A DNA stretch of 20,000 bases, taken from IMG/VR virus record IMGVR_UViG_3300046328_001173; one strand, written 5' to 3'. This document shows, piece by piece, positions 1-16,139 of this stretch; the first letter of the stretch is position 1; every line of letters starts with the position of its first letter. The notes below the pieces were generated by a model. The model had not been told where the DNA came from, searched no databases, and saw nothing but the letters and a program-made list of their open reading frames with translations. This stretch comes from an uncultured virus (IMG/VR IMGVR_UViG_3300046328_001173) (taxonomy: Duplodnaviria; Heunggongvirae; Uroviricota; Caudoviricetes). Position numbers and translations under genes: made by a program.

Positions 1-80
1 GAGATGATTTTATTGAACCTATTATTCCTGTTAATATAATTAAAAATAAATTTTAATTTACATTTTAAAAAATAACCTTT

Positions 81-680
81 ATGAAAACCATAGAAGAAAA
101 AAATATCTTAAAATCTACGCCTTTTGTAGCTAAATGGAAAGAAGAACAAAAATGCCGTGAAAAAGAACACATTAATTCTTTTCCTGAGTTACAACTAGAT
201 GTAGCTTATTGAAAGGACTATTTAAATAAACATAGTTGGATTGATTTCAGTGGATTTACAAGAGATATTATTGTAGATTATACAAAAAGCCTTCCTGCAT
301 TGTTGTCTTACGTAGAACATTTAAATATGCTAGGAGATTTTAGTGCTGCTGTAAGATTTATTGCAGGAGATTTGTTTACAGATGTTGTTTTAGAAGTAAA
401 TTATGAAGATTGTGGAGGACAAAAACTATTTAAGATACCTAAAACCTTTAAGAAAGTTGATGGTTGGTTTACTAATCCTGAAAATAATCTTGTAACAGTT
501 TCTATAAATAAAAAAACTAATAGTGTTCAATTTACTATTGATGTAGACAAAGCTGGTGTTTTAGATGTTTATTTAAGACACAATGCTCTGCAATTCAGTG
601 ACTATTATAGTCTTAATTTGTTTCTATTGTATGTAGAATTTTTTAAAATGTTAAAAGCAGAAAAAAAACCAAAATTATAA
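81..680 (+). CDS. Hypothetical protein (~199 aa) with an in-frame TGA at 210-212
   Basis: ATG at 81 (MKTIEEKNILKS...) is in frame with track ORF 300..680. The only interruption is TGA in ...LDVAY*KDYLNKHSW... Confidence 0.7.
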
Positions 681-907
681 AAAAATTTGAAAGAATACTT
701 TGTAGAGCAATACGTAAATTAAATCGTAAAATGGGTAAATATAAAAATTTTTTCGTTAGAGATGAGGCTACAGATTTATATATTCCATCTAAAAAACACG
801 ACAAATATCTTAAACATCTTAAGATTGTTATTAAATCAATGGGAGATTTCAATCCTTATACTAAACTTAAAAAAGAACCTATTAATGAATATAGTTATTG
901 GCATTAA
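677..907 (+). CDS. Small basic hypothetical protein missed by the ORF track; ATA start (or ATG at 731, or a frameshifted tail of the upstream gene)
   Basis: Open frame (I/M)KKFERILCRAIRKLNRKMGKYKNFF...EYSYWH* ends TAA at 905-907. The ATA is in the same aaaatt-start context as ATGs at 5181, 6250 and 17174. An A8 run at 661-668 offers an alternative frameshift explanation. Confidence 0.55.
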   Translation: MKKFERILCRAIRKLNRKMGKYKNFFVRDEATDLYIPSKKHDKYLKHLKIVIKSMGDFNPYTKLKKEPINEYSYWH

Positions 908-946
908 CTAAACTTATTATTAAATAACTAATTTAATTTAAACTAT

Positions 947-1390
947 ATGAAAACAACAGAAGAAAAATTTAAACAGTTGTTAAAAATAGCTGTTGATAAT
1001 GGATTTGATTTAGACTTTTTACCTAGTCATTTTGATCTTTGGATAAATAATGTAGAATCTGCACACTTAAAGCCAAAAGTTTATCTTGATTTAAATCACT
1101 TTTTAATTGTGTTTGGTACATTTTGCTATCCTATTAATAATTTGATTTTAAACACTAACTTCTTTGATTGTTTATTTTTAAACACTGGATTTAGTGGAGT
1201 TCAAGACTCTATTCATTTGTCTGTAAATAATAAAGAGTATAAAACATATTGGATTGGTGAAGATATGTATGATACAACAGATGATGAAGAATCTGGACCA
1301 CCTTCTATTGATTTTATGAGGTTTCAATGGATAGTAGAAATTAAAAAAGGGTCTCCTTTAGAATGGTTGTTTAAACAATTTGATTTATAA
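947..1390 (+). CDS. Hypothetical phage protein, 147 aa
   Basis: Intact ATG..TAA ORF with an A/T-rich leader. Confidence 0.8.
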   Translation: MKTTEEKFKQLLKIAVDNGFDLDFLPSHFDLWINNVESAHLKPKVYLDLNHFLIVFGTFCYPINNLILNTNFFDCLFLNTGFSGVQDSIHLSVNNKEYKTYWIGEDMYDTTDDEESGPPSIDFMRFQWIVEIKKGSPLEWLFKQFDL

Positions 1391-1421
1391 AACTTTAAAA
1401 TCTTTAACTCTTAAAACTATT

Positions 1422-1943
1422 ATGCACAGAGTTCCAGAATTCAGAAGATTCTTAAATATTTACTACACTAGAACAAATAAACTTGTTTTTTGTAGTGTAA
1501 TACACTCATTTTCTTTTTCTAAAGTAGAAAAAATCTATTCTAAATTGACTTGGAAAATTGATTATCTCAAAGATACTGTGAAAGCAACTAACCAAAATTT
1601 TACTTTTGAAGTTGTTAAGATAGAAGAATTTGATTATATGGATATTGAAGATTCTTGTAAAGACTTGAAGATTCCTTATACTGTAGAATACAATCTAGAA
1701 GCAGTAAAGAAATATTGGAATACTAGAAAAGGAAAAAAAGAATTTGTTGAGCAATTAAAAAATCCTTCTCAACAAGTATCTTTGTTCTTTGATGATAGTG
1801 ATTACATTATTTCTTTTGATGGTAAATGGTTAAAGCAATTAATTGAAGAAGAATCTTGAACTATGTCAGATATATATGGATTTAGTGAAAATTTTTCTTA
1901 TATTTTTGAATATAATCCTCACGATATTTTTTATGTATTTTAA
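1422..1943 (+). CDS. Hypothetical protein with an in-frame TGA at 1857-1859
   Basis: Likely start is ATG 1422. After the TGA the frame continues for 27 codons (EEES*TMSDIYGFSENFSYIFEYNPHDIFYVF) to TAA 1941-1943, 20 nt before the next ATG. Confidence 0.7.
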
Positions 1944-1963
1944 TCCTTTAAACACAATATAAT

Positions 1964-2278
1964 ATGATTTGGAAATTAAATATTCCATTAAAAGACAACA
2001 AATTAACTGAATATCACAAAAAAGAATTTAATAGGTATTCTGAATTACTATCTTACATTCAAGATATATTAACAGGTAAAATAATTGATAATTTTCCTGT
2101 TCAAATAGAAGAATTTGTATTTAATGAAGAGTTTTATAATGTGTCAGAAGAAGAATATTTATTAAAATATTCAACAGAAGGTATTGATTATTTTAATGAT
2201 TATAAATTAAAACGAAATACAATATTTAATAACTTAATTGATAGTGTTTTCAACTCTTTTGTAACAAAATTAAAATGA
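1964..2278 (+). CDS. Hypothetical protein, module gene A copy 1 (paralog of 12726..13100)
   Basis: Shares W-x-L-x-I-x-L...YHxKxF...Y...ILxGxIxD...IE...FVTK with 12726..13100. ATGA overlap with the next gene. Confidence 0.85.
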   Translation: MIWKLNIPLKDNKLTEYHKKEFNRYSELLSYIQDILTGKIIDNFPVQIEEFVFNEEFYNVSEEEYLLKYSTEGIDYFNDYKLKRNTIFNNLIDSVFNSFVTKLK

Positions 2279-2652
2279 TAAGTTCTCTTGGTGATATTGA
2301 AGATATGCTAAATCAGGGTAAATATCCTGTTTTTCATCCTAAATTAGATCCAATAGACTGTACTTTATGTTGTCTTCCAACGAAAGAGTTTTTATTACAA
2401 TGTACTCATTATATTATAATAGAAAGAATCTACTGTGATTGGGCTATTGTTAGATTTGCTACTCATTCTAGTTACAAAGGAAAAAATATTCTTGTTGAAG
2501 TCGATCAATTTGTTCCAGAAGACTTAGATTTCTTTGTTAGAAAGAATGAAAAACTATTTAATTTCTATTCTCCAAAAGAGATGAATTTAATGTTATTAGA
2601 TACTTGTATGAGTTTTATATCTTATAAAGGATACTTTAAATATTTAAAATAA
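2275..2652 (+). CDS. Putative Zn-binding protein, module gene B copy 1 (paralog of 13078..13464)
   Basis: GKYPxxH-x7-CxxC-x10-CxH and C-terminal SYxGYFxY shared with 13078..13464. Confidence 0.85.
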   Translation: MISSLGDIEDMLNQGKYPVFHPKLDPIDCTLCCLPTKEFLLQCTHYIIIERIYCDWAIVRFATHSSYKGKNILVEVDQFVPEDLDFFVRKNEKLFNFYSPKEMNLMLLDTCMSFISYKGYFKYLK

Positions 2653-2659
2653 AAACTCA

Positions 2660-3695
2660 ATGAAAACACCAGAACAAATATCTCAATGGGGGGTTAAACA
2701 ACTTCATTAACAAGTATCATTTAAGAACTAATACTAACAAAGAATTGATTTGTTTGTGTTATGACCAAATTGATACACCTAAAAATGACATTAGTAATGA
2801 GTGTCGTAGATTAGTTTTAAATAAAGAGACATTGGAAGTAGTTTCTTATCCTTTTTATAGGTTTAGTGATTATACCCCTAAACAACATAAACTAGACTTT
2901 GATAAAGGTTTATTTTATGAGAAAATAGCTGGTTCGTTGTGTACTTTGCATTTCTATGACAATAAATGGAATATTTCTACAAAAGATACACCAATGGGAG
3001 AAGATAAAGTGGAGAAAAATAATGAACAAACATTCTCTGAATATTTCTTTAAAGTGTTGAATAAAACAACAAATTTAAAAGCACTAAATACTAACTTCTT
3101 TTACATCACAGAGTTTAAATTCCCTAGTGGTACTCATCATTTGATACCTAATACTGATTCTTCTATTAATCTTATTGGGTTAAGAGATAAAAAAACACTA
3201 GAAGAATTGCCTCACAATATGTTGAATAATGATTTTAATGTATTACAAGGTTTAAAATTCAAAGAGGGTAAAGAATTGTTTGATTACATTAACAATTTAG
3301 ACCCAATAGTTTCAGAAGGTTTAGTTTATGTTAATAGAGATAAAGTAACTAATGGTAACTATCAAAGATTTAAGATTAAACCCCCTCAATTTGAATTGAT
3401 TTTTAGTTTAAAAACAGTCGTTCAGTCAGATATTACTAAAGAAAGAGAAAGAAAAAGATTGAATACTAAGTGGTTGAAAGAACTTTGTCAATATAATAAA
3501 CACCGTACATTTTTAGAACTAAAAAAATATTCTTGTTTTAGAGAAGAAGTTGAAAATATTGATAAAAAAATTAAATTATTTGAAGATACTTGTAATCAGT
3601 ATTTTCATATAACAAATCCAAAAGAAACCTCTTTATTGAATGTTGAACAAGAAGTTAAAACTTGGTTGTTTTTACAGTTAAAACAAAAAACTTAA
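2660..3695 (+). CDS. T4 Rnl1-like RNA ligase with a frameshift near the 5' end and an altered motif I
   Basis: YDQIDTP..ECRRLVL..EVVSYPFYRF, motif I YEKIAGSL (usually KxDGS), motif IV EGLVYV, motif V RFKIK. ATG 2660 is one base out of frame with the main ORF; the shift lies around 2676-2693, which includes a G6 run. Confidence 0.8.
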
Positions 3696-3724
3696 AATAA
3701 ATTCTTAAATTTATAACAACTAAA

Positions 3725-3958
3725 TTGTGGTTAATACACAGAGTAGAACAATGTTCTAGTGTACCTGTATTTGCATTTTTAAATGAAGAAGAGGCTTTAA
3801 ATAAACTATATGATTTAAATAATATTAAAAAATCTAGTTTATATCAAGATATTGGTGAAAAAGCTTACTCTATTCTTGTAAAGTCTTATCAATATATTTT
3901 ACAAGAAGAACCTGTTTTAATTGAAGGTAAAGTCTTTCAATCGTTTCAAAATCTTTAA
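3725..3958 (+). CDS. Hypothetical protein, 77 aa
   Basis: TTG start, TAA stop, fills the gap between neighbours. Confidence 0.65.
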   Translation: MWLIHRVEQCSSVPVFAFLNEEEALNKLYDLNNIKKSSLYQDIGEKAYSILVKSYQYILQEEPVLIEGKVFQSFQNL

Positions 3959-3967
3959 TTTTAATTA

Positions 3968-4327
3968 ATGAAGACTGCTGAATTAAACAATTCTGAAAAT
4001 ACAAAAAAATATCTTGTTAGTAGAACTCTACAATTAGGTAATATTGTATTTAGAAGAGCTTTAGGGCATTATATAGCTCTATATAAAAGAGAAAATAGAA
4101 ATTCTAGTAATTTTTATGGAGTTATATTATCTTCTGATGACTACTATAATTCTCAACAAGGTATTTTACTTAATAGTAAACTTACAAAAGAAAAGTCTTT
4201 AACTTATTTTACGGGGATTGTGTTAATTAAATCTTTTCCTGATAATAATTTTGTTTTTGGTCAATTGACTAACAAAGAATTAAAAACAATTAAAGATTAT
4301 GTAAAATTGTTTAAAACAAAAATATAA
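3968..4327 (+). CDS. Hypothetical protein, 119 aa
   Basis: Intact ATG..TAA ORF. Confidence 0.75.
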   Translation: MKTAELNNSENTKKYLVSRTLQLGNIVFRRALGHYIALYKRENRNSSNFYGVILSSDDYYNSQQGILLNSKLTKEKSLTYFTGIVLIKSFPDNNFVFGQLTNKELKTIKDYVKLFKTKI

Positions 4328-4384
4328 TTTTATGCTTTATACTTCACTAAAACATATCAATAATTACTTTAAAAATCACTAAAA

Positions 4385-5104
4385 ATGAAACTATTTATTA
4401 GTAGTAAAACAGCTTATTGGGAAGTAAAAGAACCTTCTTTTAAAGATGTATTGTTCCCTAATGTTGGATTAAAATGTAGTTTACAAATACCTCTAATTTT
4501 TAAAAGAGTAGAAAAAAATGAAATTATTTCTACATTTTTAATTGAAGGTGGTTGTAATTATTCTATTCCTGTTACAAATACTTAGTGTAAAATTGTAGAT
4601 ATTGTATTAGAGTGTGATAAAGAAGAATTATTTTTTTATACAACAGTTATATTAGAAGATATGAATATTCTTGTAATAAAAATAGATTCTTCTATTGTTG
4701 ATTATTCAATTCTTAACTTCTATCAAGATTATAATGAAGAAGACTTACAATTAACTAAACAATTAAACAAGTCTTCTAACAGTATTTATTATTTTAAATT
4801 AAATAAAGACAACAATTCATTACATTTAAGTGAATACAATTGGATATCAAATATTTTTTTACTTAAAGATTTTTATCTTCGTAATAATTTTAAAAAAGTA
4901 TTTGTTACTAGATGTGTAAATAAAATTAAGGGTGTTCTTTGTCTATTAATGAGAAAATCAATCTATTTTATTGAAGATATTGTGTATTGACGTACAATGC
5001 ATACATCTCATAGTTCTAAATTATCAGATATTGATGTATTAGGTTCACATATTAATCTTTATGAAAAATTTAGTAAAAGTTTATTGACTAATAATGAATA
5101 TTAA
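4385..5104 (+). CDS. Hypothetical protein (~239 aa) with in-frame TAG 4583-4585 and TGA 4988-4990
   Basis: Track ORFs 4385..4585 and 4661..4990 share a frame. The linker (NT*CKIVDIVLECDKEELFFYTTVILED) and tail (VY*RTMHTSHSSK...NNEY) are open to TAA 5102-5104. Confidence 0.75.
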
Positions 5105-5180
5105 AAAGGTTTCATTTTAATTAAATAAATTATTTATAAATTTTTTAAATCTTAAACATTAGACTTTAAACACTAAAATT

Positions 5181-6200
5181 ATGACACAAAGTCCATTTAG
5201 TTATATTGATACATTCAAAAAAGAACACGTAAGACTAATTCTTGAAAAAAATCATTATCAAAGTAAAGATGAAAAGGGTGCTAACGTCTATGAACATCTT
5301 AATTTTTATCTTATTATTACTTATTCACCTACACATAAAATAGGTGGAACTAATACTTCTATTGTACAAAGTAGCAATGGATATTTATTTTAATCTCGTA
5401 ATTTATTATTAATTGAAGGTACAAATACACCTGACCAGAATGGATTTAAAAAATATCGACAACCTCTTCTTTTTATTTGACAAAGTTAGAAATGAGTATC
5501 ATTGTAATATAAACGATGAAATTATCATTTATGGAAAATGGTGTGATTCAGGTATTAAAAACAATCATTCAATTTCACAAGTTAAAACTAAACAATGGGT
5601 TATATTTGCTATTAAAATCAATACTAAATATGTAGATAATTTTGTTGAGTTAGCTGACGAAAAAAATAGTGTCTATAATGTTCTTAAATGGGGAACTTTT
5701 AAAGTAATTATTGATTATAATCAATTTAACTTTAATTGTTAGAAAGACTCTAATTCAAATTTACCAAAAGAGTTACAAGATTTAACTAATGAACACACTT
5801 TAAAATGTCCTGTATCTAAATTTTTTGGTATTGATGATCTTGGAGAAGGTTTAGTTCTTAAATCTGATACTTATATTAGTCACAGAAGTAAAGAATCTGT
5901 AATTATGAAGATTAAAAATTCTGATTACGATAAAAGTTTTGTAAAACAAGTTGTAGAAAAGACTTCTACTCCTAATTAAATGAATTTCTAAAAAAATCTA
6001 TTAAACCTGCAAGATTAGAACAATTTTGTACATTTTTACAAAATCAAGGTGAAGAAATATCAATGAAAAATGTTGTTAAATTTCAAAATCTTGTTATTGT
6101 AGATATCATTAAAGAATGTAACAATCTATCAAATGATTTACAGCTTACTCAAAAAGAGTGTGCTTCATTCTTTAAAGAAAAAATTAAGCTAATTAAATAA
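5181..6200 (+). pseudogene. Rnl2-type RNA ligase, disrupted: TAA 5391-5393, frameshift ~5440-5455, TAG 5740-5742, frameshift ~5974
   Basis: Motifs in order across frames: HKIGGTN (motif I), F*SRN (usually QSRN), IYGKWCDSG (usually GEW-x-G), IFAIK, CPVSKFFGIDDLGEGLVLK (motif IV), IMKIKN (motif V), then C-terminal RLEQ...MKN...DIIKE ending TAA 6198-6200. Confidence 0.8.
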
Positions 6201-6249
6201 TAAAATAAATTAAATCTTTTCAAATTTCTTACTTCAAACCAATAAAATT

Positions 6250-6516
6250 ATGAAAGCAATCGTAGAAGGTACAATGAAAATTTACAAAACTAATTACCTA
6301 GTTCAAAGAATCACAATTGTGAAAGAATTGGATAGAAAAGAAGATTCTCAAAATCTTCAATCATTGATCAAGTTTCAACCAAGTTATAATGGATTGGCTA
6401 CTTATACAATGGGTGGAGATGGTTGGAGCTATAAAAAAAGTGAAGATTTGCATAATACTTTAGTTAAAGTTAGTGAATCAGGACAAAAATTCTTTTCATT
6501 AGCAACTAGATTTTAA
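6250..6516 (+). CDS. Hypothetical protein, 88 aa
   Basis: Intact ORF followed directly by a terminator. Confidence 0.8.
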   Translation: MKAIVEGTMKIYKTNYLVQRITIVKELDRKEDSQNLQSLIKFQPSYNGLATYTMGGDGWSYKKSEDLHNTLVKVSESGQKFFSLATRF

Positions 6517-6531
6517 ATTTTAAAGTTCATC

Positions 6532-6570
6532 AAACCTTAATCTATTAATTTAGATTAAGGTTTTTATTTT
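6532..6570 (+). terminator. Intrinsic terminator
   Basis: Perfect 13-bp stem AAACCTTAATCTA / TAGATTAAGGTTT, 6-nt loop, T-rich tail. Confidence 0.85.
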
Positions 6571-6605
6571 ATTCTTATGAAATTACAACTAATCTTCAAA
6601 ATAAA

Positions 6606-6839
6606 ATGTTAAATCCTATAAACCTGTTATGCAATAATATTAAAAACAAATTTGTTAGATTAACTAACATAGATAGAAAAGAATTAACTATTGATAATGA
6701 TAACTATACTAATGTAAAAGTTACAAAAGAATTTATATTTGTTAGTCTTTCTAATTTAAATTATGAATTTTATCAATTCAATAATCTAGAAATTTGTTTT
6801 AAAAATAATCGTAAAAAAGAACTATTATGCAAACATTAA
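6606..6839 (+). CDS. Hypothetical protein, 77 aa
   Basis: ATG..TAA ORF overlapping the next start. Confidence 0.65.
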   Translation: MLNPINLLCNNIKNKFVRLTNIDRKELTIDNDNYTNVKVTKEFIFVSLSNLNYEFYQFNNLEICFKNNRKKELLCKH

Positions 6840-7411
6840 GTTTTGAAATTGCTCGTAAATTGAACGCTGTTATTATTAATGATATGTTAATCATTAAGCA
6901 GTATAAAATAAAGAAAAATAAATATGTTCTTTCTAGAACTATTGAAATTGGGTTAAAAAAATTTGATTCTTTAGAATGTTTTTTAAAAGAATTGGGTTTT
7001 AATTTCGAGATGGGTAATCTAAAAGATTATTTTCTAGATTGTTTAAAAGAACTATTATTTACAACAATCTCTGATTTAATTCAAGATACAGATTTATTTG
7101 AATTGAATGAAAGCATTAAATTCATTGTTGATAAAAAAGTCTGGTTATATCAAAACTTTATTATCAATATTAAAGAAAGAGGTAACATTTATTTTACTGT
7201 TAATGAAGTAAAGTATAAGATACCTTTTAATTACCACACATTTTTTAAATCGTACAACAATTCAAGAATGTTTTTAATAGATTTTATAGAAAGTTGTAAA
7301 TTATTTGGAATATTTATTTCAGATAATGATAGAATTAATATAAAGTCTTTAAAATTACATTGTAATGTAGTAAGTCTTGATGCAGAAGATTTTTATGTTA
7401 CTCAATATTAA
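6827..7411 (+). CDS. Hypothetical protein, 194 aa
   Basis: Long intact ORF followed by a terminator. Confidence 0.8.
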   Translation: MQTLSFEIARKLNAVIINDMLIIKQYKIKKNKYVLSRTIEIGLKKFDSLECFLKELGFNFEMGNLKDYFLDCLKELLFTTISDLIQDTDLFELNESIKFIVDKKVWLYQNFIINIKERGNIYFTVNEVKYKIPFNYHTFFKSYNNSRMFLIDFIESCKLFGIFISDNDRINIKSLKLHCNVVSLDAEDFYVTQY

Positions 7412-7428
7412 TATTTAATTGATAATTT

Positions 7429-7470
7429 GAACAGTGTAGAGTAGTTTATATGACTTTACACTGTTCTTTT
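7429..7470 (+). terminator. Intrinsic terminator
   Basis: Stem GAACAGTGTAGAGT / ACTTTACACTGTTC with one G-U pair, followed by TTTT. Confidence 0.8.
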
Positions 7471-7484
7471 AACTAAACTTTTTT

Positions 7485-7841
7485 ATGACAACATTTGATA
7501 GATTTCTTTATTTAAAACAATTAATTAACAGTAGTCTTGCAACAGAAGAACAGTTACAAGAATATCAAACACTTAAAAATAAACCAGAAATTAGTAGACA
7601 ATTAAGTGTGTATAACTTTTCTTTACTTTCAAATGAATTAGCTTTATCTAATTGGACTTTAAAACAAAAATTAAGCCATATTATTGATGTTTATGGTTAT
7701 GTGTCTAAGTATATAAAAGAAATGTTAGATTGTATTGAAGAAGGCAAAGAAATTAAAGGAGATAGTATACTAATTCATTATGAAGGCAGATATTTTCTAA
7801 CTCAAGCACTTGGTCAATATGTTATTAACGGACTAATTTAA
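7485..7841 (+). CDS. Hypothetical protein, 118 aa
   Basis: Intact ATG..TAA ORF. Confidence 0.8.
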   Translation: MTTFDRFLYLKQLINSSLATEEQLQEYQTLKNKPEISRQLSVYNFSLLSNELALSNWTLKQKLSHIIDVYGYVSKYIKEMLDCIEEGKEIKGDSILIHYEGRYFLTQALGQYVINGLI

Positions 7842-7867
7842 ATTTTACATTTTAAACTAAACTTTTT

Positions 7868-8257
7868 ATGACAAAATTAGAATCTTTTTTAGGTAAAAAA
7901 TTAACTGATTTGTAGGAAATTGAAAATTGTCTACAAGAACTAGAATTAATTAAAGAAAATTTAATTGAAAAAAAGAATAGTTCTGATTGGTATAAAAACA
8001 TATTAAATAGTTGGTACAATTATGGCAAAGGTTTTGTGTATATATTGTCTATTGATTGTATAAAAAGTTTTTGTTACATCAATGTTGAATTTGAATTAGG
8101 TTCTACTTCACAATATAGTGATTCTTTTTATGCAAATATAAATTATGACATTTTCTTGAAAAGATTTACCAAAATTGACTTTCAAGATGTAATTGATCAA
8201 TTAAATCAAATAAAAAGCTCTCATAAAGAGTTACAATACTTGTTTAATATTAAATAA
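7868..8257 (+). CDS. Hypothetical protein (~129 aa) with an in-frame TAG at 7913-7915
   Basis: ATG 7868 has the same leader as 7485. MTKLESFLGKKLTDL*EIENCLQELELIKE... runs in frame into track ORF 8036..8257. Confidence 0.75.
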
Positions 8258-8260
8258 GTT

Positions 8261-8820
8261 ATGAATTATTTAATTTACACTAGATTAAACTATATTAGTC
8301 TAGTGTATAAATCAATTATAACTATGAAAATTAATTTTGAAATACCTATTAATAAATTTACAAATGAGCAATATTATTTAACATCTTCTATAATAACAAA
8401 TAAAAAACTATATGTCTTAATAAGAGAAAATAAACAACTAATTAAAGTTATTGACAATATTATTTGGTATTTATATAAAAAAAATGTAATATTAAACATT
8501 TAAATAATAATTATGATATTGTATTGGAACAATTTAATGAAAAAGAGTTAAAAAAATATAATAAAACAGAAAATTCTATTGAAGAATTGTTAGTTAATTT
8601 AGACCTTAAAAGAAAAAATACTTTAATTTCTAGTTATTCTGATAATGGTGAAATGATTTTATCTGAACAAACTTCTTTTGTTGATAAGTTATTTAAATGG
8701 AAGAAACATAATACTATTATTTGTATTTGTTATAATCAATATCTTTTAGACTATATTAAAAAGAAACTTGATAATGATTGTGTTTTATATTACATTAATG
8801 AAAGACTTGTTGAATACTAA
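8261..8820 (+). pseudogene. Hypothetical gene probably split by a frameshift in the A8 run at 8477-8484
   Basis: The frame of track ORF 8524..8820 is open back to the A8 run (KKCNIKHLNNNYDIVLEQF), where it meets ORF 8261..8503. The true start may be ATG 8303. Confidence 0.55.
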
Positions 8821-8853
8821 AAATTATGGAATTACTATATAATACCTAAAATA

Positions 8854-9153
8854 ATGGAATATACTTATAAAGAATTAATAGAACACACTAAATTTTTTAC
8901 TTCTAAATTTAGTGAAATATGTATTGGAGGAGTAAGTGGTGGTTGGTTTAGAGTTAGTTCAGATTATAGTTTTAAAAGGGTAAATTTAGGAAAACTATAT
9001 AATTACTATGAAGAATGTTATATATCTATTTATACAAATTCTTTAACTGCAAAATGTAGTATTAAACAAATTTGTTTAATAACAGTAGAAGGAGAATTTA
9101 TTGTATTCGATACTTGGGAAAGCTTTAAAGATTTTATACTTAAAAAAATATAA
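8854..9153 (+). CDS. Hypothetical protein, 99 aa
   Basis: Intact ATG..TAA ORF. Confidence 0.75.
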   Translation: MEYTYKELIEHTKFFTSKFSEICIGGVSGGWFRVSSDYSFKRVNLGKLYNYYEECYISIYTNSLTAKCSIKQICLITVEGEFIVFDTWESFKDFILKKI

Positions 9154-9156
9154 AAA

Positions 9157-9317
9157 ATGTATAATACTCACACCAAACCCATTTAATTTTACACCTTTCT
9201 GATTTATTTAGTGAGTCTTTAGAAAAATATAGTTGTAATACAGAAATATAAGATTTGTCAATAAATTGTGAAATTATTGAAGTTGATTTGATTGATGTAA
9301 ATAATTTGAATATTTAA
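9157..9317 (+). pseudogene. Possible small gene remnant
   Basis: ATG 9157, then a shifted frame LILHLSDLFSESLEKYSCNTEI*DLSINCEIIEVDLIDVNNLNI with an internal TAA at 9249-9251. Confidence 0.35.
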
Positions 9318-9345
9318 AAATTTTTAAACATAAACTTTTAATCTT

Positions 9346-9588
9346 ATGAATAATTTAAAATCTTTTATTGGTTTAAAAATCATTGCTACTCTTGAATCAA
9401 TCGATTGTAATGATTATGCTTTACTACTTTCTGATGGAAAAGTTTTATCCTTTGAATGTGGAGATATAAATAATAGTCTCTGTTGTGAATCAGCAGATTT
9501 TCAACCTGGGTATTTTATATATGAAAGTATTAAAGATTATGAAGAAAATAGAAAATGCACAAATAAACCATTTGATTTTGAAAATTAA
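9346..9588 (+). CDS. Hypothetical protein, 80 aa, with a CCE motif
   Basis: Intact ORF; ...LSDGKVLSF...CCES. Confidence 0.75.
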   Translation: MNNLKSFIGLKIIATLESIDCNDYALLLSDGKVLSFECGDINNSLCCESADFQPGYFIYESIKDYEENRKCTNKPFDFEN

Positions 9589-9606
9589 TTACTTAATCTT
9601 AAACCT

Positions 9607-10694
9607 ATGTTATTAGAACTTAAAATTACAAATTTCAAATCTATTAAAGAACAACAGACACTATCAATGCTTACTTCTAGTAGAGTTAAAACAAGATACA
9701 ATGAAGCTGTTGTTGTAAATGATGTAGAAATATTAAAAACCTCTGTTATTCTTGGTAAGAATAATGGAGGAAAAAGTAATATTCTTGATGCTTTTAAAGT
9801 GTTGAAAGATATCGTTAAAGGAGAACTTTATGAAAAAAATTCAAGTTTTCAATTTGATATTCAAACAATTAATGAACCTTCGATACTTGAATTAGATTTT
9901 GTTTATGCTGATAATAGATACATATATTATGTTGAATTTAAGGATAAACTTATTCTAAAAGAATTTGTGTTTTTAAATAATATGCGTAAATCTTTACTTA
10001 TTACAAGAGACGGCTCTATTATTAAATATAGTAATAATTATAAAAGCACTAGATTAAAAAAAGTATTTGACCATCAATCCATTATAACAGAAGATTCAGA
10101 GGTATATAAGTTTATTATTGATAAAGTATGTATTTATAATAATGAAAAATGCTTATCTTCTTTTAGAGAGTTATATAAAAAACATATTAATAAACTTTCT
10201 TACATTATTAGAGCTTTTGATACAGGTATTTTAGAAATGGAGTTGGATTCTGATAATAAAATATTGTGTATCGTCAGAAATTTTAATAAAGAAGAAGAAC
10301 TTAAAACAATAAGAGTAAGTTTAGATTTTCAATCTTATAAATCAAAAAAATTAATCCGATTTTTAGCTTTTTAATAAAAATTCTTGAAAAGGGTAAAATA
10401 TTTATTGTAGATGATTTTGGAGAAAGTTTTCATTCTTTATGCAATCACGCTATTGTAGAAAGGTTTTATGAAAAAGAGTTTAATGTAAATAATTCTCAAT
10501 TCGTCTTTTCTACTCAAGATATCGCATTAATAGAAAACTATTTGTTTGACAAAGACCAAATTACTTTGATTGATAAATATTATTTTGGAAAAACTGAAAT
10601 TAGCACTGTTTCGGATTTTAAAAGCATAAAAAATGACGTAAATATATGTTCTTGGTATTTAGCTGGAAAATTAGGTGGTTTTCTTTGTAAGTAA
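9607..10694 (+). pseudogene. AAA_21 / RloA-AbiEii-like ABC-type ATPase, frameshifted at the T5 run 10368-10372
   Basis: N-terminus MLLELKITNFKSIKEQQTLSM and Walker A GKNNGGKSN. In the shifted frame: Walker B region IFIVDDFGESFH, QFVFSTQD, DKDQITLIDK and terminal YLAGKLGG, to TAA 10692-10694. Confidence 0.85.
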
Positions 10695-10821
10695 TATTAA
10701 TTAAAATAATTCTTAATTTAAAAGTTAAAATCTTATGAAAATACTTGTAGTACTTGACCTTTTCATTAATTAATTATAATTAAAAAAATTTCTGTTCAAA
10801 AATTGTAAATAAAAACTTTTT

Positions 10822-11385
10822 ATGTATTATAATATAAGCCATTTAAAATCAGTTACAAGTGTAAGTTATATTAAAATAGAAGATCTAATTAAAGATGAAT
10901 TTAAATTAGATTCTTATTTAGTAATTGACATTTTATTAGTAAAAACATCTTATCAAGAATATGAAGGTAAATCTATTTTTACTATTGATAATAGAAAAAT
11001 CACTGGATATGAGAACATTATTGTTCAAGGTTTGTTAAAAAATAATAAAAAATTAGCTATTCTTCAAGATTATGGAGATGATTGGAGAGAGTTAGAAAAT
11101 TTGTCATATATAAGACAGTATTTTGGTTTTGAAGAAGATGATGATACAGAATTGCAATATTCAATAGCCATCTCAGAAGATAATAAATTATATATGGTTT
11201 GTGCAAATATAGAAGAAACTACTTGCCATTTATTTGAATTATTAAATTTACCAGAAGATTCTTTTAATAAATTATACAACTATGAAAATCTAGGAGGAGT
11301 AAAAAGGCCTTACTGTATTAAAAATTTTAAACTCAATATCTTATTATTAGGTGAAATCGATTTAAACTTTTTAAAAATTACTTAA
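10822..11385 (+). CDS. Hypothetical acidic protein, 187 aa
   Basis: Long intact ORF. Confidence 0.8.
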   Translation: MYYNISHLKSVTSVSYIKIEDLIKDEFKLDSYLVIDILLVKTSYQEYEGKSIFTIDNRKITGYENIIVQGLLKNNKKLAILQDYGDDWRELENLSYIRQYFGFEEDDDTELQYSIAISEDNKLYMVCANIEETTCHLFELLNLPEDSFNKLYNYENLGGVKRPYCIKNFKLNILLLGEIDLNFLKIT

Positions 11386-11386
11386 T

Positions 11387-11716
11387 ATGACAATATTTAA
11401 TGCTTTTGTAGAAGTTATATTAAATTCTTCTTACCATATTCACGAATGGGATTCTATTAATGATGAAATAGATGAAGAATGTGAGTTATTTTATCAATAT
11501 AAAGGAGACATCACTACAAAATGGAACAAAAATTTAGAATATTTTGTATAGGAACTTCACTATAAAAATAAAATAGTTGCATTTATAAAAAAAGAATATT
11601 ATGATCACAATGAATTTTATGATTATATATTCACAGATTATGGTTATGAATACTTATTTAAAAAATTTACAGATTTAGCTAAAAGAAACTTTAAAAATCG
11701 AAACTGTTATGAATAA
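11387..11716 (+). CDS. Hypothetical protein (~109 aa) missed by the track, with an in-frame TAG at 11549-11551
   Basis: ATG 1 nt after the previous stop. MTIFNAFVEV...LEYFV*ELHYKNKIVAF...RNCYE ends TAA overlapping the next ATG (11709), filling the gap exactly. Confidence 0.8.
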
Positions 11717-12029
11717 TAAAAATTTAGAGTTATTAGAAAATGTTTGGCTTTACAATTCTCTTTCTTATAGTTTTATGCAAATATCTTGTTGTCAATGGGA
11801 TGAAGAAGAGGAAGATGAAGAAGATATTAATAAATTTAGCTATAACATAGAGAAAAGAATTATTACAGAATTTTCCAGATTAGATAAAATCTCTATTTAT
11901 TATAATGAAGCTTATCATAAAGATTTCATTTATGATTGGAAGATTGTAAAAGATAAAAAAATAATTGAATCTTTAAATAATGTACATACAGAATTAGAAA
12001 ATATTTTTAATACCACTAAACTTTTATAA
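11709..12029 (+). CDS. Hypothetical protein, 106 aa, with an acidic tract
   Basis: Intact ORF; WDEEEEDEED. Confidence 0.8.
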   Translation: MNNKNLELLENVWLYNSLSYSFMQISCCQWDEEEEDEEDINKFSYNIEKRIITEFSRLDKISIYYNEAYHKDFIYDWKIVKDKKIIESLNNVHTELENIFNTTKLL

Positions 12030-12031
12030 TT

Positions 12032-12718
12032 ATGCAAAAAATACCTCAAATCTTATTAGATTACTTTAATAAGTTTCATAATAAAGAGTTAAATGAGACT
12101 ATTACGAATTTTAAAGTTAATTATGAAAACCTAGAATATGATTTTGAAATTTGGATTGATAGTTTTGATATAGATAAACCTAAAAACAATTTTACAAATG
12201 TTTCTATATTAAACCTTATTTCTTTTATGTATGATAAGCTAAATCCTGTATATAATTTTTATGATTTCTTTTCAGGAAAATTACGTATTTCAGATTTCTA
12301 CTCTGAAGAATATACTTATGAAAAAGAAGATAAACTTATCAAATCCTATAGTCAAGCTATTTTAGATTTTTCTGGTTATAAAAAAGATAATTTTGATTTT
12401 ATTGAAAATACTACAATAGATGTAGATCAATATGGAAATGTTGATATTATTTGTGTTGATAGAAAATCTATTAGACAAAAATTAGAATATTATGTTTATA
12501 AATTCTTACCAAAAGAATATTTCAGTTGTTTTGAAGAACTGCCTAAAACTTACAGTGAAGCTACAGAAAAATTAAATCTTTTAGAACAATTAAAAACTAT
12601 TGATTTTTCTAGTCTTAAAGAAGAACAACAAAAAGAACTAAAACTTGTATTGTATTATCAGAAGTTAAAATTAGAATGGTATCATAAAACAGTAATGATT
12701 AATCACTTAAACGAATAA
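12032..12718 (+). CDS. Hypothetical protein, 228 aa
   Basis: Long intact ORF. Confidence 0.85.
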   Translation: MQKIPQILLDYFNKFHNKELNETITNFKVNYENLEYDFEIWIDSFDIDKPKNNFTNVSILNLISFMYDKLNPVYNFYDFFSGKLRISDFYSEEYTYEKEDKLIKSYSQAILDFSGYKKDNFDFIENTTIDVDQYGNVDIICVDRKSIRQKLEYYVYKFLPKEYFSCFEELPKTYSEATEKLNLLEQLKTIDFSSLKEEQQKELKLVLYYQKLKLEWYHKTVMINHLNE

Positions 12719-12725
12719 ATAAATT

Positions 12726-13100
12726 ATGAAACAATTTAAATGGGAATTGAAAATTGCACTCGCAACAGGTCCAGATAATACTTACCATATTAAATACTTC
12801 GACAATATTTTTGATTGTATTGATTATATGGAAGAAATATTAAATGGAAATATAGAAGATGATTGGGATTGTCATATTGAATCTTATCAGGAACACCAAC
12901 ATTTAAAAACATTAACTGATGAACAAATTAAACAAGCAATAAAACCTAGAACAGAAAATTCTTATTATTCTTCTTTTGAAAATTTTAAAGAACTTATTAA
13001 AAGAAATGAAAAAAAATACAATAAAAAAGAATTTCTAAATCAAATGATTTCAGATTTTGTAACAAAAGTTTCTTCTTATGACAATACTAGAAAAAGTTAA
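12726..13100 (+). CDS. Hypothetical protein, module gene A copy 2
   Basis: Paralog of 1964..2278; overlaps the next gene. Confidence 0.85.
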   Translation: MKQFKWELKIALATGPDNTYHIKYFDNIFDCIDYMEEILNGNIEDDWDCHIESYQEHQHLKTLTDEQIKQAIKPRTENSYYSSFENFKELIKRNEKKYNKKEFLNQMISDFVTKVSSYDNTRKS

Positions 13101-13464
13101 AGATACTTTAAGTAAAGGAAAGTATCCAATAATACATTTAGAAAAAGATAATTTTAAATGTCAAATGTGTATGCAAATAGATAACAATTATTTACAACAA
13201 TGCAGACATTTTATTATTGTTACAGATCTCTATGATGGTGGATTTATTGGTAGAATAATAACTAGTTCTCCTAATTACGGAAATATTAAAATAGTTAAAG
13301 AACAGTATCATATTGATACAAATATTAAAAATTTAGGTATGTTTTTTAAACCTTTAAAGTATCATTCTAACCTTATTCATCAATATTTTTTTACTTCTGA
13401 TTGTATGGAAGAAGGTTCTTATAGAGGATATTTTGATTATGTTTTAAACAGTCAATTAACTTAA
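13078..13464 (+). CDS. Putative Zn-binding protein, module gene B copy 2
   Basis: GKYPIIH...CQMC...QCRH...SYRGYFDY; paralog of 2275..2652. Confidence 0.85.
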   Translation: MTILEKVKDTLSKGKYPIIHLEKDNFKCQMCMQIDNNYLQQCRHFIIVTDLYDGGFIGRIITSSPNYGNIKIVKEQYHIDTNIKNLGMFFKPLKYHSNLIHQYFFTSDCMEEGSYRGYFDYVLNSQLT

Positions 13465-13485
13465 ATCTAAACTAAATTAAAACTT

Positions 13486-14088
13486 ATGTCAATAGAAGAA
13501 AAATTCTACAAAATATGTTGTCTTCTTAATCATTTAAGGAATAATAGAACTAAATTGCACCCTTATGATATGAATTACACTTATATTTTATTTGATATTG
13601 TAGAAGATTCAACACCTTTTAAGATAATTCATAATGTAATTGAAACAGAATTAATTTCAGTTGAATTATTCAATTTATTGTTTATTTCTGATTGATTTGC
13701 TTGGTTATTCCCAGAAGAAAAAAGATTTGAACCTATTGAAATATCTTTAAAATGAAAAGACGGTAATTTTATTATTGAAACTCTTGAAGATTATAAAAAA
13801 TTTCAATATTTAAGTTATTATAAAGAATGTACAGCAATTGATAGATTGTGTGATGAGTTGTTTAATAATTCAAATGAAATTTCTTCAATTAAATTTTTTA
13901 CAAAAGAAAAAGTATTAAAGTTACAAATCTATGAAAATAGAAAAAATAGGCTTCCTTATACTTGTTGTTCTCACAATGGTTGTAATAGAGATGAAAATTA
14001 CGAAAGTAAGTTGCTGCTTACTATAAATGAAATGATTTGTTCTTGTGGTAAATATATTCAAATAGAAATAAATAATTTTTATACTTAA
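13486..14088 (+). CDS. Hypothetical protein (~200 aa) with a Cys-rich C-terminus and two in-frame TGAs (13693-13695, 13753-13755)
   Basis: Track ORFs 13486..13695 and 13846..14088 share a frame: FISD*FAWLFPEEKRFEPIEISLK*KDGNFIIETLEDY... The C-terminus CCSHNGC...CSCGK suggests a Zn ribbon. Confidence 0.75.
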
Positions 14089-14174
14089 ATAGTTGAAATA
14101 TTTTTTCTTTTATTAAATTTCACTTTTTTAAAACTTTATTTTAGATTTATAATCTAATTTAATCAAAAAAAAAT

Positions 14175-14405
14175 ATATTTAAAGATGTGTGGAACGTAAA
14201 TAGGAATTTGAACAAAACATTTACTCATATTGAACATACTCTTGATGCAGACAATGAAATCGATGAGAAGATTACTAATGGAATTACTACAATTGGAGTA
14301 AAATACAAAGGTGTTTGGTACACATCTAAACTAAAAGTAAAATACAAAATAGCTGACATTAAAAAATAGGTGGAAACTAAAAATACTAAAAAAATTGAAT
14401 CTTAA
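14175..14405 (+). CDS. Hypothetical protein (~76 aa) with a probable ATA start and an in-frame TAG at 14367-14369
   Basis: aaaaat-ATA-TTT-AAA-GAT-GTG-TGG; ...ADIKK*VETKNTKKIES to TAA 14403-14405. Confidence 0.6.
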
Positions 14406-14523
14406 TTTGTAAAACAGAAATAATTATTAGCTTATTTTTAATTGAACAGGTTTTTTTTATGATTAAATTTCAATTAAGCTTTATTTAAACTCAAAACTAT
14501 AAATACTTCATTAATACGTATAA

Positions 14524-14811
14524 AAGAAATATCTAGAAATACATAATTTTACGCTATTTTGTATATTTAACAATAGTGAGCATTGCTATTTTGATTTCAA
14601 GGAAATTTTCAAAAAATGAAATATTCAAAATCAGGATATAGAATATGCAGTATTAGAAGTAAGTGAATTTCAAAAAGTTAAGTTAGTTAATAGAACGCTT
14701 ATGTGAGATAGTTTAAGCGTCTTTTTATTGAATGAAAAAGCAAAGGAAGTAGCTGCTCCTTGTCAAATAGCTCTATTAGTTTTATATCAAAATAGTAAAA
14801 CAATTAACTAA
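14524..14811 (+). pseudogene. Unannotated frame (~95 codons) with two in-frame TGAs (14617-14619, 14704-14706) and no clear start
   Basis: KKYLEIHNFTLFCIFNNSEHCYFDFKEIFKK*NIQNQDIEYAVLEVSEFQKVKLVNRTLM*DSLSVFLLNEKAKEVAAPCQIALLVLYQNSKTIN, TAA 14809-14811. Confidence 0.55.
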
Positions 14812-14843
14812 ATTGACTTTGAAGGGATCAATTTTAATACAAT

Positions 14844-14872
14844 AAAAAAACCTATACATTAAGTCGTATAGG
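14844..14872 (-). terminator. Intrinsic terminator for the minus-strand gene pair
   Basis: Stem CCTATAC / GTATAGG preceded by A7 (T7 tail on the minus strand), 9 nt past the stop at 14882. Confidence 0.75.
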
Positions 14873-14881
14873 CCTTGAAAT

Positions 14882-15857: not shown

Positions 15858-15883
15858 TGTCAATAATTAAATCAAACTACTTT

Positions 15884-16135: not shown

Positions 16136-16139
16136 ATTT

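What the first reader, a model, noticed from the sequence alone, without database searches (positions are those of the whole stretch)
81..14811. Both TAG and TGA occur repeatedly inside genes at Trp-like positions, while real gene ends are TAA
Seen: 12 internal stops. TGA at 210, 1857, 4988, 13693, 13753, 14617 and 14704; TAG at 4583, 5740, 7913, 11549 and 14367. In each case the frame continues to a TAA, and the rescued gene fills an otherwise unexplained gap (11387..11716 abuts both neighbours). One gene (4385..5104) has both codons. Contexts such as SD*FAW, LK*KDG, FV*ELH and KK*VE read naturally as Trp. About 54 normal TGG codons remain by hand count, and I found only about 2 comparable internal TAA. 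Known: phage recoding is normally either TAG=Gln or TGA=Trp, not both, and a code-4 AT-rich genome would favour TGA over TGG, which is not the case here. Both codons are one A-to-G change from TGG. Inference: (a) dual readthrough by suppressor tRNA-Trp, (b) A-to-I mRNA correction acting as an expression switch, (c) GG-directed G-to-A hypermutation followed by decay, or (d) miscalled modified guanines. Co-occurring frameshifts favour (c) or (d), but the skew towards Trp codons still needs explaining.
Basis: partly seen in the sequence, partly recalled or inferred. Interest (0 to 1): 0.9.

Follow-up and report, generated by a model that had tools for sequence, protein, structure and literature searches.

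The report
Broken genes in an AT-rich phage
A stretch of an uncultivated, very AT-rich freshwater phage carries a dozen real in-frame TAG and TGA codons, but the same genes also hold frameshifts and a TAA stop, so this looks mainly like gene decay rather than a new genetic code, although the shortage of TAA breaks is not yet explained.

Summary
The frame stays coding-like across them, and the open stretches that follow are too long for chance at 10 or more sites. They are not assembly errors. Short-read contigs from two samples reproduce all 12 sites with no differences, and a third study reproduces three.

A clean dual recoding is not supported. In all three enzyme genes where homologs allow a check, I found four homopolymer frameshifts that no genetic code can repair: RNA ligase 1, RNA ligase 2 and an AAA_21 ATPase. 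RNA ligase 2 also has a TAA at a conserved Gln and has lost conserved motif residues.

The amino acid at the stops could not be read. The ORFan genes have no homologs in any library searched, and the one TAG in a gene with homologs lies in a lineage-specific insertion.

Best reading: real nonsense lesions in a decaying accessory region (0.5). In-frame TAA (2-3) is much rarer than TAG+TGA (11-12), against an expected TAA share of 55-60% (P about 0.001-0.04). Composition at 4-fold sites gives no G-to-A bias to explain this. Partial suppression of both rare stops (0.3) therefore stays open.

The parts
210..212 (+). in-frame TGA in ORFan gene 81-680; 155 open codons follow
   Evidence: The gene caller's own fragments P0009 (residues 1-43, ending at this TGA) and P0007 (83-199) were found.
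1857..1859 (+). in-frame TGA near the end of ORFan gene 1380-1943; 27 open, coding-like codons follow
   Evidence: The identical piece 1675-2097 is present in run X3.
4385..5104 (+). ORFan gene with TAG at 4583 and TGA at 4988. Its ATG is preceded by the CTTTAAA start motif.
   Evidence: No homolog found.
2660..3695 (+). RNA ligase 1-like gene. The ATG at 2660 is in frame 1 ('MKTPEQISQW'), and the body is in frame 2 from about 2691. The frame change lies at the only G6 run of the window (2688-2693).
   Evidence: phrog_562 match. Vibrio phage homolog residues 11-227 align to frame 2 from 2691, upstream of the first start codon in that frame. The start motif precedes 2660. G6 census.
5181..6197 (+). 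RNA ligase 2-like gene in three frame pieces: 5181 to about 5450 (f2), about 5461 to 5976 (f0) and 5976 to 6197 (f2). The lesions are a TAA at 5391 at the conserved Gln of 'FQSR', one extra base at the A6 run 5448-5453, a TAG at 5740 inside a 9-residue insertion, and one lost base at 5975-5977.
   Evidence: phrog_548 match. tblastn and blastp against 4 phage Rnl2 homologs: the pieces are collinear with homolog residues 14-83, 94-221 and 246-316. Codon view.
7913..7915 (+). in-frame TAG, 15 codons after the motif-preceded ATG 7868 of ORFan gene 7868-8257
9154..9345 (+). coding-like remnant in frame 2 with no start codon, carrying an in-frame TAA at 9249 (and another at 9315)
9607..10694 (+). 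AAA_21-type ATPase split by a -1 frame change at the A7 run 10344-10350. The Walker A half is in f0 (9607-10374). The Walker B half ('KIFIVDDFGES') is in f2 (10341-10694).
   Evidence: The f0 piece hits phrog_5836 positions 5-247. The f2 piece hits positions 290-400 with E 9e-17, and AAA_21 positions 256-304 weakly. Homolog L025 is one ORF of 433 aa that covers both pieces in one frame.
11549..11551 (+). in-frame TAG in ORFan gene 11387-11716, which abuts both neighbours
13486..14088 (+). ORFan gene with TGA at 13693 and 13753; motif-preceded ATG
   Evidence: No homolog.
14367..14369 (+). TAG followed by only 12 open codons; may be a genuine stop
14527..14811 (+). coding-like frame with TGA at 14617 and 14704 and no start codon at its head. 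Run X3 has a 9-base in-frame deletion at 14636.
17174..17734 (+). HNH endonuclease with an N-terminal HTH, intact in the window. A 1-base deletion in its T7 run (17481) is present in runs X2 and X3.

Best explanation
The window is part of an uncultivated, 22% GC tailed phage from fresh water. It consists of small early or accessory genes on one strand, T4-type RNA ligases 1 and 2, an HNH endonuclease and bacterial-type terminators. It has no Shine-Dalgarno sites.

The 12 in-frame TAG/TGA codons are real DNA. They are most likely nonsense mutations, largely TGG to TAG/TGA under the strong GC-to-AT pressure of this genome. They have recently accumulated, together with 1-base homopolymer indels and a few TAA, in a block of dispensable genes under relaxed selection. 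They are not a reassigned code.

Shown: the codons, the continuing frames, the frameshifts, the TAA at a conserved Gln, the lost motif residues and the read support. Inferred: that the stop sites were TGG, that the proteins are truncated in vivo, and that the genes are dispensable.
For: 1. In 3 of 3 enzyme genes with usable homologs there are frame changes that no code can mend.
- RNA ligase 2 has two.
- The AAA_21 ATPase has one at an A7 run. Its two halves hit phrog_5836 positions 5-247 and 290-400, and the homolog L025 is one 433-aa ORF.
- RNA ligase 1 has one at the window's only G6 run.

2. RNA ligase 2 also has a TAA exactly at the Gln of 'FQS[RK]', which is present in 4 of 4 homologs.

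3. RNA ligase 2 differs from 4 of 4 homologs at four conserved motifs:
- KxHG is KIGG.
- GEW is GKW.
- IQKGVA is IKNNHS.
- FKxKG is ISHRS.
RNA ligase 1 has EKIAGSL where 2 of 2 homologs have EKxDGSL.

4. Two coding-like remnants have no start codon: 9154-9345, which holds TAA, and 14527-14811, which holds two TGA.

5. Homopolymer indels are segregating now: a 1-base deletion in the T7 run of the HNH gene in X2 and X3, and +A at 4323.

6. TGG is still the main Trp codon, 53 against 12 stops. A settled code 4 in a 22% GC genome would not look like this (general knowledge).

7. There is no tRNA in the window.

8. The lesions are not errors. X1 and X2 contigs cover all 12 stops and all 4 frameshift sites with 0 differences.
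Against: 1. Among in-frame stops, TAA is too rare. Codon usage predicts that 55-60% of random nonsense hits would be TAA under three mutation spectra.
- Observed 2 of 14, P 0.0005-0.002.
- Allowing three doubtful same-frame gene junctions gives 5 of 17, P 0.01-0.03.
- An objective scan that treats the three stops alike gives 8 TAG/TGA against 2 TAA. My binomial estimate for that is about 0.02.

2. Neutral-site composition gives no G-to-A excess on the + strand to explain this: at 4-fold sites G 49, C 45, T 752, A 505.

3. Same-frame neighbouring ORFs number 8 of about 38 pairs, which is not above one third, so few TAA breaks are hidden (my count).

4. Hardly any gene demonstrably ends in TAG/TGA. 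TGA 2276 is followed at once by TAA, TAG 15855 by TAA two codons later, and TAG 14367 by TAA 12 codons later.

5. Three of five coding indel differences between runs keep the frame: -3 at 7896, -9 at 14636, and +1 with +2 at 18906/18911. Two of these lie in stop-bearing genes. The depths are low and n is small.

6. The carrier is abundant and identical over 14 kb in two samples, so the lesions are not crippling.
Confidence: 0.5

Rival explanations
1. TAG and TGA are partly or fully translated in this phage-host system. This could happen through phage suppressor tRNAs encoded outside the window, or through weak release-factor action on two stops that the AT-rich genome hardly uses. TGG-to-TAG/TGA changes would then be nearly neutral and accumulate, an early stage of capture of both rare stops with TAA as the only efficient terminator. 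The frameshifted ligases and ATPase would be a separate, ordinary decay.
For: - TAA is deficient among in-frame stops, with no matching mutation bias at 4-fold sites.
- Every stop-bearing frame stays open and coding-like to a TAA.
- Almost no gene demonstrably ends in TAG/TGA.
- Four stop-bearing genes (4385, 7868, 11387, 13486) have the same start motif as intact genes.
- In-frame indel differences lie in two stop-bearing genes.
- The TAA lesions seen sit in a gene with frameshifts (Rnl2) and in a start-less remnant.
- The preprint 10.1101/2021.08.26.457843 (passages read) proposes this route: low GC depletes TAG/TGA stops, a suppressor tRNA is acquired, and in-frame stops then accumulate.
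Against: - No tRNA is in the window.
- No site could be aligned to a homolog residue.
- The one TAG in a gene with homologs sits in a gene with three lesions that cannot be rescued.
- I know of no described phage that reads both codons (from memory; the passage search found 0 occurrences of 'both TAG and TGA' in that preprint).
- Hidden frameshifts in ORFans cannot be excluded: 6 ORFs have doubtful TTG/GTG starts.
- The statistics rest on about 14 events.
Confidence: 0.3
2. A recent burst of strand-specific G-to-A change on the + strand turned about one TGG in five into a stop. This would be cytosine deamination of the - strand, for example by a host or competitor DNA deaminase. Ordinary decay followed.
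For: - G-to-A alone makes stops only from TGG, and makes TAG and TGA in equal shares. The observed counts are 5 and 7.
- Per-site hits are about 8-12 of roughly 125 TGG guanines, against 2 of 154 CAA cytosines (my count).
- Several replaced conserved residues in Rnl2 are G-to-A steps: Glu to Lys, Gly to Asp, Gly to Asn (the codon steps are inferred).
- In run X1 the window has A where variant contigs have G 13 times, against 2 the other way.
Against: - 4-fold sites show G about equal to C and T above A, and the GC skew is positive. A recent burst need not show in either measure.
- Summed over the four runs, A>G is 31 against G>A 16, and T>C is 18 against C>T 11. That points to AT drift on both strands, not one. 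The same variants may be counted in several runs.
- There is no consistent neighbouring base at the TGA sites.
- A genome-wide 9% loss of G would probably kill an abundant phage (inference).
- It does not explain the homopolymer indels.
Confidence: 0.12
3. Sequencing or assembly artefact, including modified guanines read as A.
For: Frame changes at homopolymers are the usual sign of read errors. X1 and X2 may themselves be the source of the window.
Against: - Logan contigs built from short reads (151-base unitigs) at 25-31x depth in two samples and studies agree at every one of the 12 stops and 4 frameshift sites.
- A third study (X3) gives identical pieces over 1857, 4988 and 14367.
- A6, A7 and G6 runs are not error-prone at that depth on such platforms (general knowledge).
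- A misread modified base would give mixed calls at all G, not fixed calls at 12 sites (inference).
Confidence: 0.04
4. A-to-I editing of the mRNA turns UAG/UGA into UGG-like codons and acts as an expression switch.
For: Both codons are one A-to-G step from TGG.
Against: - No deaminase gene is in the window.
- From memory, known bacterial TadA editing needs a tRNA-Arg-like loop with UACG, which these sites lack.
- It cannot mend the frameshifts.
Confidence: 0.01

Closest known systems
Ordinary pseudogenes: nonsense plus homopolymer-frameshift decay in AT-biased genomes
   Same: One-base indels at A6, A7 and G6 runs. Nonsense codons reachable by GC-to-AT transitions. A TAA at a conserved Gln. 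Loss of conserved motif residues. Lesions clustered in some genes: Rnl2 has 4, and three ORFans have 2 each.
   Different: The carrier is an abundant, clonal phage, not a bottlenecked cellular genome. Frames are otherwise still fully open. TAG+TGA outnumber TAA about 5 to 1, where about 1 to 1.4 is expected.
Stop-codon-recoded phages (TAG read as Gln, 'code 15'; TGA read as Trp, 'code 4'), as in preprint 10.1101/2021.08.26.457843 and PMC9523058
   Same: Low GC content. TAA is nearly the only terminator. In-frame TAG/TGA occur in otherwise open frames. The preprint's model of rare stops becoming free for capture fits (passages read).
   Different: Both codons occur, even in one gene. The density is low: 12 in about 5,500 codons, with TGG still 53. 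No suppressor tRNA is seen. Frameshifts and TAA lie alongside. The window holds early or accessory genes, whereas recoding is described as enriched in late and lysis genes (abstract). For PMC9523058 I saw only the search listing.
T4-type RNA repair genes (Rnl1 'RNA ligase and tail fiber attachment catalyst', Rnl2)
   Same: phrog_562 and phrog_548 matches. The genes are collinear with phage homologs over nearly the full length.
   Different: Both genes are frameshifted, and conserved nucleotidyl-transferase motif residues are replaced. No polynucleotide kinase was seen next to them in the window, whereas two homolog loci have one downstream.

Membership tests
Stop-codon-recoded phage (code 4 and/or code 15 type) | Stop positions align with one consistent amino acid (Trp or Gln) in homologs | tested here: inconclusive
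   No homolog covers any of 11 sites. The 12th site, TAG 5740 in Rnl2, falls in a 9-residue insertion absent from 4 of 4 homologs.
Stop-codon-recoded phage (code 4 and/or code 15 type) | Suppressor tRNA with a matching anticodon in the genome | tested here: inconclusive
   0 tRNA genes in the 20-kb window. The rest of the contig (up to 78 kb) could not be read: no genome is held.
Stop-codon-recoded phage (code 4 and/or code 15 type) | The recoded codon is not used as a genuine terminator | tested here: inconclusive
   Only TGA 2276, TAG 14367 and TAG 15855 could be true ends. Each is followed by TAA within 0-12 codons, so either reading fits.
Stop-codon-recoded phage (code 4 and/or code 15 type) | Genes are whole once the codon is read as sense | tested here: not met
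   Rnl1, Rnl2 and the AAA_21 ATPase still need 4 frame changes, and Rnl2 also needs a TAA read through. The ORFans do become whole.
Stop-codon-recoded phage (code 4 and/or code 15 type) | In-frame stops in essential or late genes | not testable with these tools
   No structural, lysis or replication gene was recognised in the window.
Decaying genes (pseudogenes) | Frameshifts or truncations relative to intact homologs | tested here: met
   Four frameshifts in three genes.
Decaying genes (pseudogenes) | Stop types in proportion to mutational opportunity | tested here: not met
   TAA is 2-3 against TAG+TGA 11-12, with an expected TAA share of 55-60%.
Decaying genes (pseudogenes) | Loss of residues conserved in the family | tested here: met
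   Rnl2 differs from 4 of 4 homologs at motifs I, III and V. Rnl1 differs from 2 of 2 homologs at motif I Asp. That these residues are essential in T4 is recalled from memory, not tested.
Decaying genes (pseudogenes) | Lesions absent from close relatives | not testable with these tools
   No relative was found in viral, metagenome or genome collections. Variant unitigs of about 88-92% identity over 1857 and 5740 exist in X1, but their letters were not listed.
Deaminase-type G-to-A hypermutation | Strand-specific G-to-A excess with a preferred neighbouring base | tested here: inconclusive
   No ancestor is available. Two proxies do not support it: 4-fold sites G 49 and C 45, and a mixed base after the TGA sites. 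The X1 variant counts of 13 A>G against 2 G>A lean towards it.
T4 RNA ligase 2 (Rnl2) family | Collinear nucleotidyl-transferase domain plus C-terminal domain | tested here: met
   The pieces align to homolog residues 14-83, 94-221 and 246-316. phrog_548 E 3.8e-11. The gene is a broken member.

The most novel reading that the evidence does not exclude
An AT-rich phage caught at the start of capturing both rare stop codons at once. TAA is its only efficient terminator. TAG and TGA are read through, probably as Trp, by suppressor tRNAs or weak termination. TGG is therefore drifting to TAG/TGA in live accessory genes, while truly dead genes beside them collect TAA and frameshifts.
Probability: 0.25. 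Interest if true: 0.85.

Novelty: already known. Interest (0 to 1): 0.4.

Why it matters
If this is plain decay, it is a caution. In very AT-rich sequence a reader who takes TAA as the gene end will see only TAG/TGA breaks, and frameshifts in ORFans pass unnoticed as gene junctions. It would also be an unusually lesion-rich block for an abundant phage.

If the TAA deficit reflects tolerance of TAG and TGA, this would be a natural intermediate on the proposed route from low GC, through rare stops, to recoding. It would be the first case involving two stop codons at once. That would make the early steps of code change directly testable.

Tried and rejected
**Whole genome and relatives**
- The whole genome is not held.
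- Megablast of the window against phages found nothing.
- An exact 42-mer in viral contigs found nothing.
- The search for related loci found no relatives with 5413-5979, Rnl1 or the ATPase in viral contigs.
- Both metagenome scans, with 12032-12718 and with Rnl1, found none.
- The genome-contig scan with the ATPase returned only four distant MAG homologs.
- The HNH gene has 18 IMG/VR relatives at 40-49% identity (one at 71% over only 34 residues), but their flanks share nothing with the window except one distant Rnl1 in L008.

**Homolog searches for the read-through proteins**
- P0003: none.
- 1380-1940: only the window's own 145-aa protein.
- P0002: none.
- P0004: none in phages. In 1.84 billion representatives it hit only its own two fragments and a repeat protein matching residues 121-173.
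- Pfam and PHROGs on all read-through proteins gave nothing above the noise.
A stop-free fragment, 13756-14085, gave only a 0.75 lead.

**Other checks**
- Rfam: no match.
- The mimivirus-type AAAATTGA promoter occurs 4 times with no relation to gene starts, so I dropped the giant-virus idea. Bacterial-type terminators and a lipoprotein signal point to a bacterial host.
- No RNA holder was listed, so expression is untested.
- Earlier scan notes hold nothing for this genome or for look-alike stretches.
- I considered programmed frameshifting, because A AAA AAA at 10344 is a classic -1 slippery site (from memory). Four programmed shifts in three enzymes, next to nonsense codons, seemed far less likely than mutation.
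- I considered comparing lesion types between ORFans and enzymes. I rejected it because frameshifts and TAA breaks cannot be recognised in ORFans.

Full report
**What the window is**

The window has 19-25% GC. About 40 small genes lie on the + strand, with one short divergent pair on the - strand at 14882-15593. There is no tRNA and no Rfam match.

Recognisable genes:
- A T4-type RNA ligase 1 (phrog_562) and RNA ligase 2 (phrog_548).
- An AAA_21/phrog_5836 ATPase.
- An HTH-HNH endonuclease.

Everything else is ORFan in Pfam and PHROGs.

Gene starts have no Shine-Dalgarno site. Instead, 14 of 32 ATG starts have TTAAAC, CTTTAAA or CTAAAC 5-30 bases upstream, against 5.8% of random positions. Three bacterial-type intrinsic terminators and a lipoprotein signal peptide point to a phage of a bacterium.

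The DNA is held by freshwater metagenome runs. No whole genome is held. No relative exists in the phage, IMG/VR, JGI metagenome or GTDB collections that I could scan.

**The observation**

All 12 codons are at the stated places, and each frame runs on to a TAA. A codon-usage log-odds scan trained on 21 long ORFs, with stop codons scored zero, keeps the same frame as the best-scoring one across every site.

The open runs behind the sites are 12 to 155 codons long. In the non-coding frames of the same genes, 631 runs behind a TAG/TGA average 6.4 codons and never exceed 43. At least 10 of the 12 sites are therefore interruptions of real reading frames. TAG 14367, followed by only 12 codons, may be a true end.

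Four of the interrupted genes start at an ATG with the window's start motif: 4385, 7868, 11387 and 13486.

**Not an artefact**

Logan contigs of short-read runs were laid on the window.
- In X1, two contigs cover 1-14104 and 14098-19978 with 0 differences, at depth 17-25.
- In X2, contigs cover 1-5185, 5173-10619 and 10690-16867 with 2 differences, both outside the finding.
- In X3, from a different study, identical pieces cover 1857, 4988 and 14367.

None of the 12 sites is among the 40 variant rows shown, and 67 rows were not shown. None of the four frameshift sites is among the indel rows. X1 and X2 may be the source of the window, so only X3 is fully independent.

**Gene decay is demonstrated**

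*RNA ligase 2.* Four phage homologs (L001-L004) align to three collinear pieces in two frames:
- Homolog residues 14-83 align to frame 2 (5181 to about 5450).
- Residues 94-221 align to frame 0 (about 5461 to 5976).
- Residues 246-316 align to frame 2 again (5976-6197).

The first change sits at an A6 run, where removing one A gives 'NGFKNIDNLFFLFDKVR'. The second sits at 5975-5977. In the first piece a TAA stands exactly where 4 of 4 homologs have the Gln of FQS[RK]. TAG 5740 falls in a 9-residue insertion that no homolog has, so it says nothing about which amino acid was there.

The gene also differs from 4 of 4 homologs at four conserved motifs:

| Homologs | Window |
|---|---|
| KxHG | KIGG |
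| GEW | GKW |
| IQKGVA | IKNNHS |
| FKxKG | ISHRS |

That these residues are catalytic in T4 Rnl2 is recalled from memory, not tested.

*ATPase.* The Walker A half (frame 0, 9607-10374) hits phrog_5836 positions 5-247. The Walker B half (frame 2, 10344-10691) hits positions 290-400 with E 9e-17. A homolog in an Anaerolinea MAG is a single 433-aa ORF covering both halves in one frame. The change lies at an A7 run.

*RNA ligase 1.* A Vibrio phage homolog aligns from its residue 11 to frame 2 starting at 2691. That is 54 bases upstream of the first possible start in that frame. A motif-preceded ATG at 2660 opens frame 1 with 'MKTPEQISQW'. The two frames meet at the only G6 run in 20 kb.

*Other signs.* Two coding-like stretches have no start at all: 9154-9345, which holds TAA, and 14527-14811, which holds two TGA. 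Homopolymer indels are segregating between samples, among them a 1-base deletion in the T7 run of the HNH gene in X2 and X3.

No genetic code can repair these lesions. The window therefore certainly contains decaying genes, and one of the 12 stops lies in the most damaged of them.

**What remains unexplained**

If all in-frame stops were neutral hits, codon usage predicts that 55-60% of them would be TAA. The relevant counts are CAA 152, AAA 533, GAA 382, TTA 342, TAT 273 and TGG 53. The prediction holds under uniform, GC-to-AT-biased or transition-only spectra.

Observed:
- 2 TAA of 14, P 0.0005-0.002.
- Counting three doubtful same-frame junctions as breaks gives 5 of 17, P 0.01-0.03.
- A scan that treats the three stop codons alike finds TGA at 210, 1857, 13693, 13753 and TAG at 4583, 5740, 7913, 11549, against TAA at 5391 and 9249. 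My binomial estimate for that is about 0.02.

Hidden TAA breaks would show up as extra same-frame neighbours or as coding-like gaps. Same-frame neighbours are 8 of about 38 pairs, below one third, and only one such gap exists.

A + strand G-to-A bias would explain the skew, but the data give little sign of one:
- 4-fold sites show G 49, C 45, T 752 and A 505.
- The GC skew is positive.
- Variant counts summed over four runs lean to AT on both strands: A>G 31 against G>A 16, and T>C 18 against C>T 11. Only X1 is strongly one-sided, at 13 against 2.

Hardly any gene demonstrably ends in TAG or TGA. Three of five coding indel differences between runs keep the frame, two of them in stop-bearing genes, though depths are low.

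These points fit the idea that TAG and TGA are tolerated better than TAA. The preprint 10.1101/2021.08.26.457843 sketches this route: low GC, then rare TAG/TGA stops, then a suppressor tRNA, then in-frame stops (passages read).

**Limits**

- The amino acid at the stops could not be determined. No homolog covers any site.
- Frameshifts in ORFans cannot be seen. Six ORFs have doubtful TTG/GTG starts, so 'whole once read through' is proven for no ORFan.
- The rest of the contig, where suppressor tRNAs and essential genes would lie, could not be read.
- The statistics rest on about 14 events.

**Verdict**

Artefact is unlikely (0.04). The best reading is real nonsense lesions in a recently decaying accessory block of an AT-rich freshwater phage (0.5). 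Tolerated or suppressed TAG and TGA, an incipient dual capture, remains a serious rival (0.3). A strand-specific G-to-A burst is a weaker one (0.12).

Earlier notes of this scan on other genomes describe similar TAG/TGA-only patterns that were judged to be decay, and one plasmid with translated TGA. They are unchecked leads and were not used as evidence.

Noticed in passing
window, 5-30 bases upstream of ATG starts (e.g. 947, 1964, 5181, 7868, 13486, 16369): There are no Shine-Dalgarno sites. Instead a TTTAAAC / CTTTAAA / CTAAAC motif lies upstream of 14 of 32 ATG starts, against 5.8% of random positions (P about 1e-9). It could be a promoter or a translation-start signal of unknown kind, and it may hint at the host group.
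   Followed up: partly
window 1964-2652 and 12726-13464: A two-gene overlapping cassette is present twice as distant paralogs: 28% identity for both genes, E 3e-7 and 2e-14. One copy is followed by RNA ligase 1, the other by the ORFan with two TGA.
   Followed up: no
window 2688-2693: The only G run of 5 or more in 20 kb of 22% GC DNA sits exactly at the RNA ligase 1 frame change. It could be a slippage-prone tract rather than a chance site.
   Followed up: partly
window 14847-15593, - strand: A divergent two-gene module. It holds a 60-aa protein with a lipoprotein-like signal (…YLSSCS…) that overlaps a 182-aa protein with a coiled-coil-like N-terminal part, and it ends at an intrinsic terminator at 14876-14847. 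This suggests a host with lipoprotein processing.
   Followed up: no
window 7896, 14636, 17481, 18906-18911, 4323 (table 4): Indel differences between metagenome runs. Three keep the frame: -3, -9, and +1 with +2. A -1 in the T7 run of the HNH gene is the majority form in X3, and +A occurs two bases before the stop of gene 3968-4327.
   Followed up: partly
window 441-599 (residues 121-173 of gene 81-680): This part of the ORFan matches a roughly 50-residue unit repeated 19 times in a 2,282-aa protein (P0008, 35% identity, E 1e-22). The ORFan therefore carries one copy of a repeat domain known from a giant protein.
   Followed up: no
window 15714-15857, + strand frame 2: A 47-aa hydrophobic ORF ('MKLSNFFFYCCFIIALTIIVYLIF…') ends in TAG, with TAA two codons later. 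It overlaps the annotated TTG start of 15740-16135, whose real start may be the ATG near 15884.
   Followed up: no
L008 (IMG/VR contig, 28.9% GC), 10001-10576 and 18099-18836: This is the only fetched locus that holds both an HNH relative (43% identity) and an RNA ligase 1 relative (30% identity) of the window's genes, about 8 kb apart. It may be the nearest known lineage, though a distant one.
   Followed up: no
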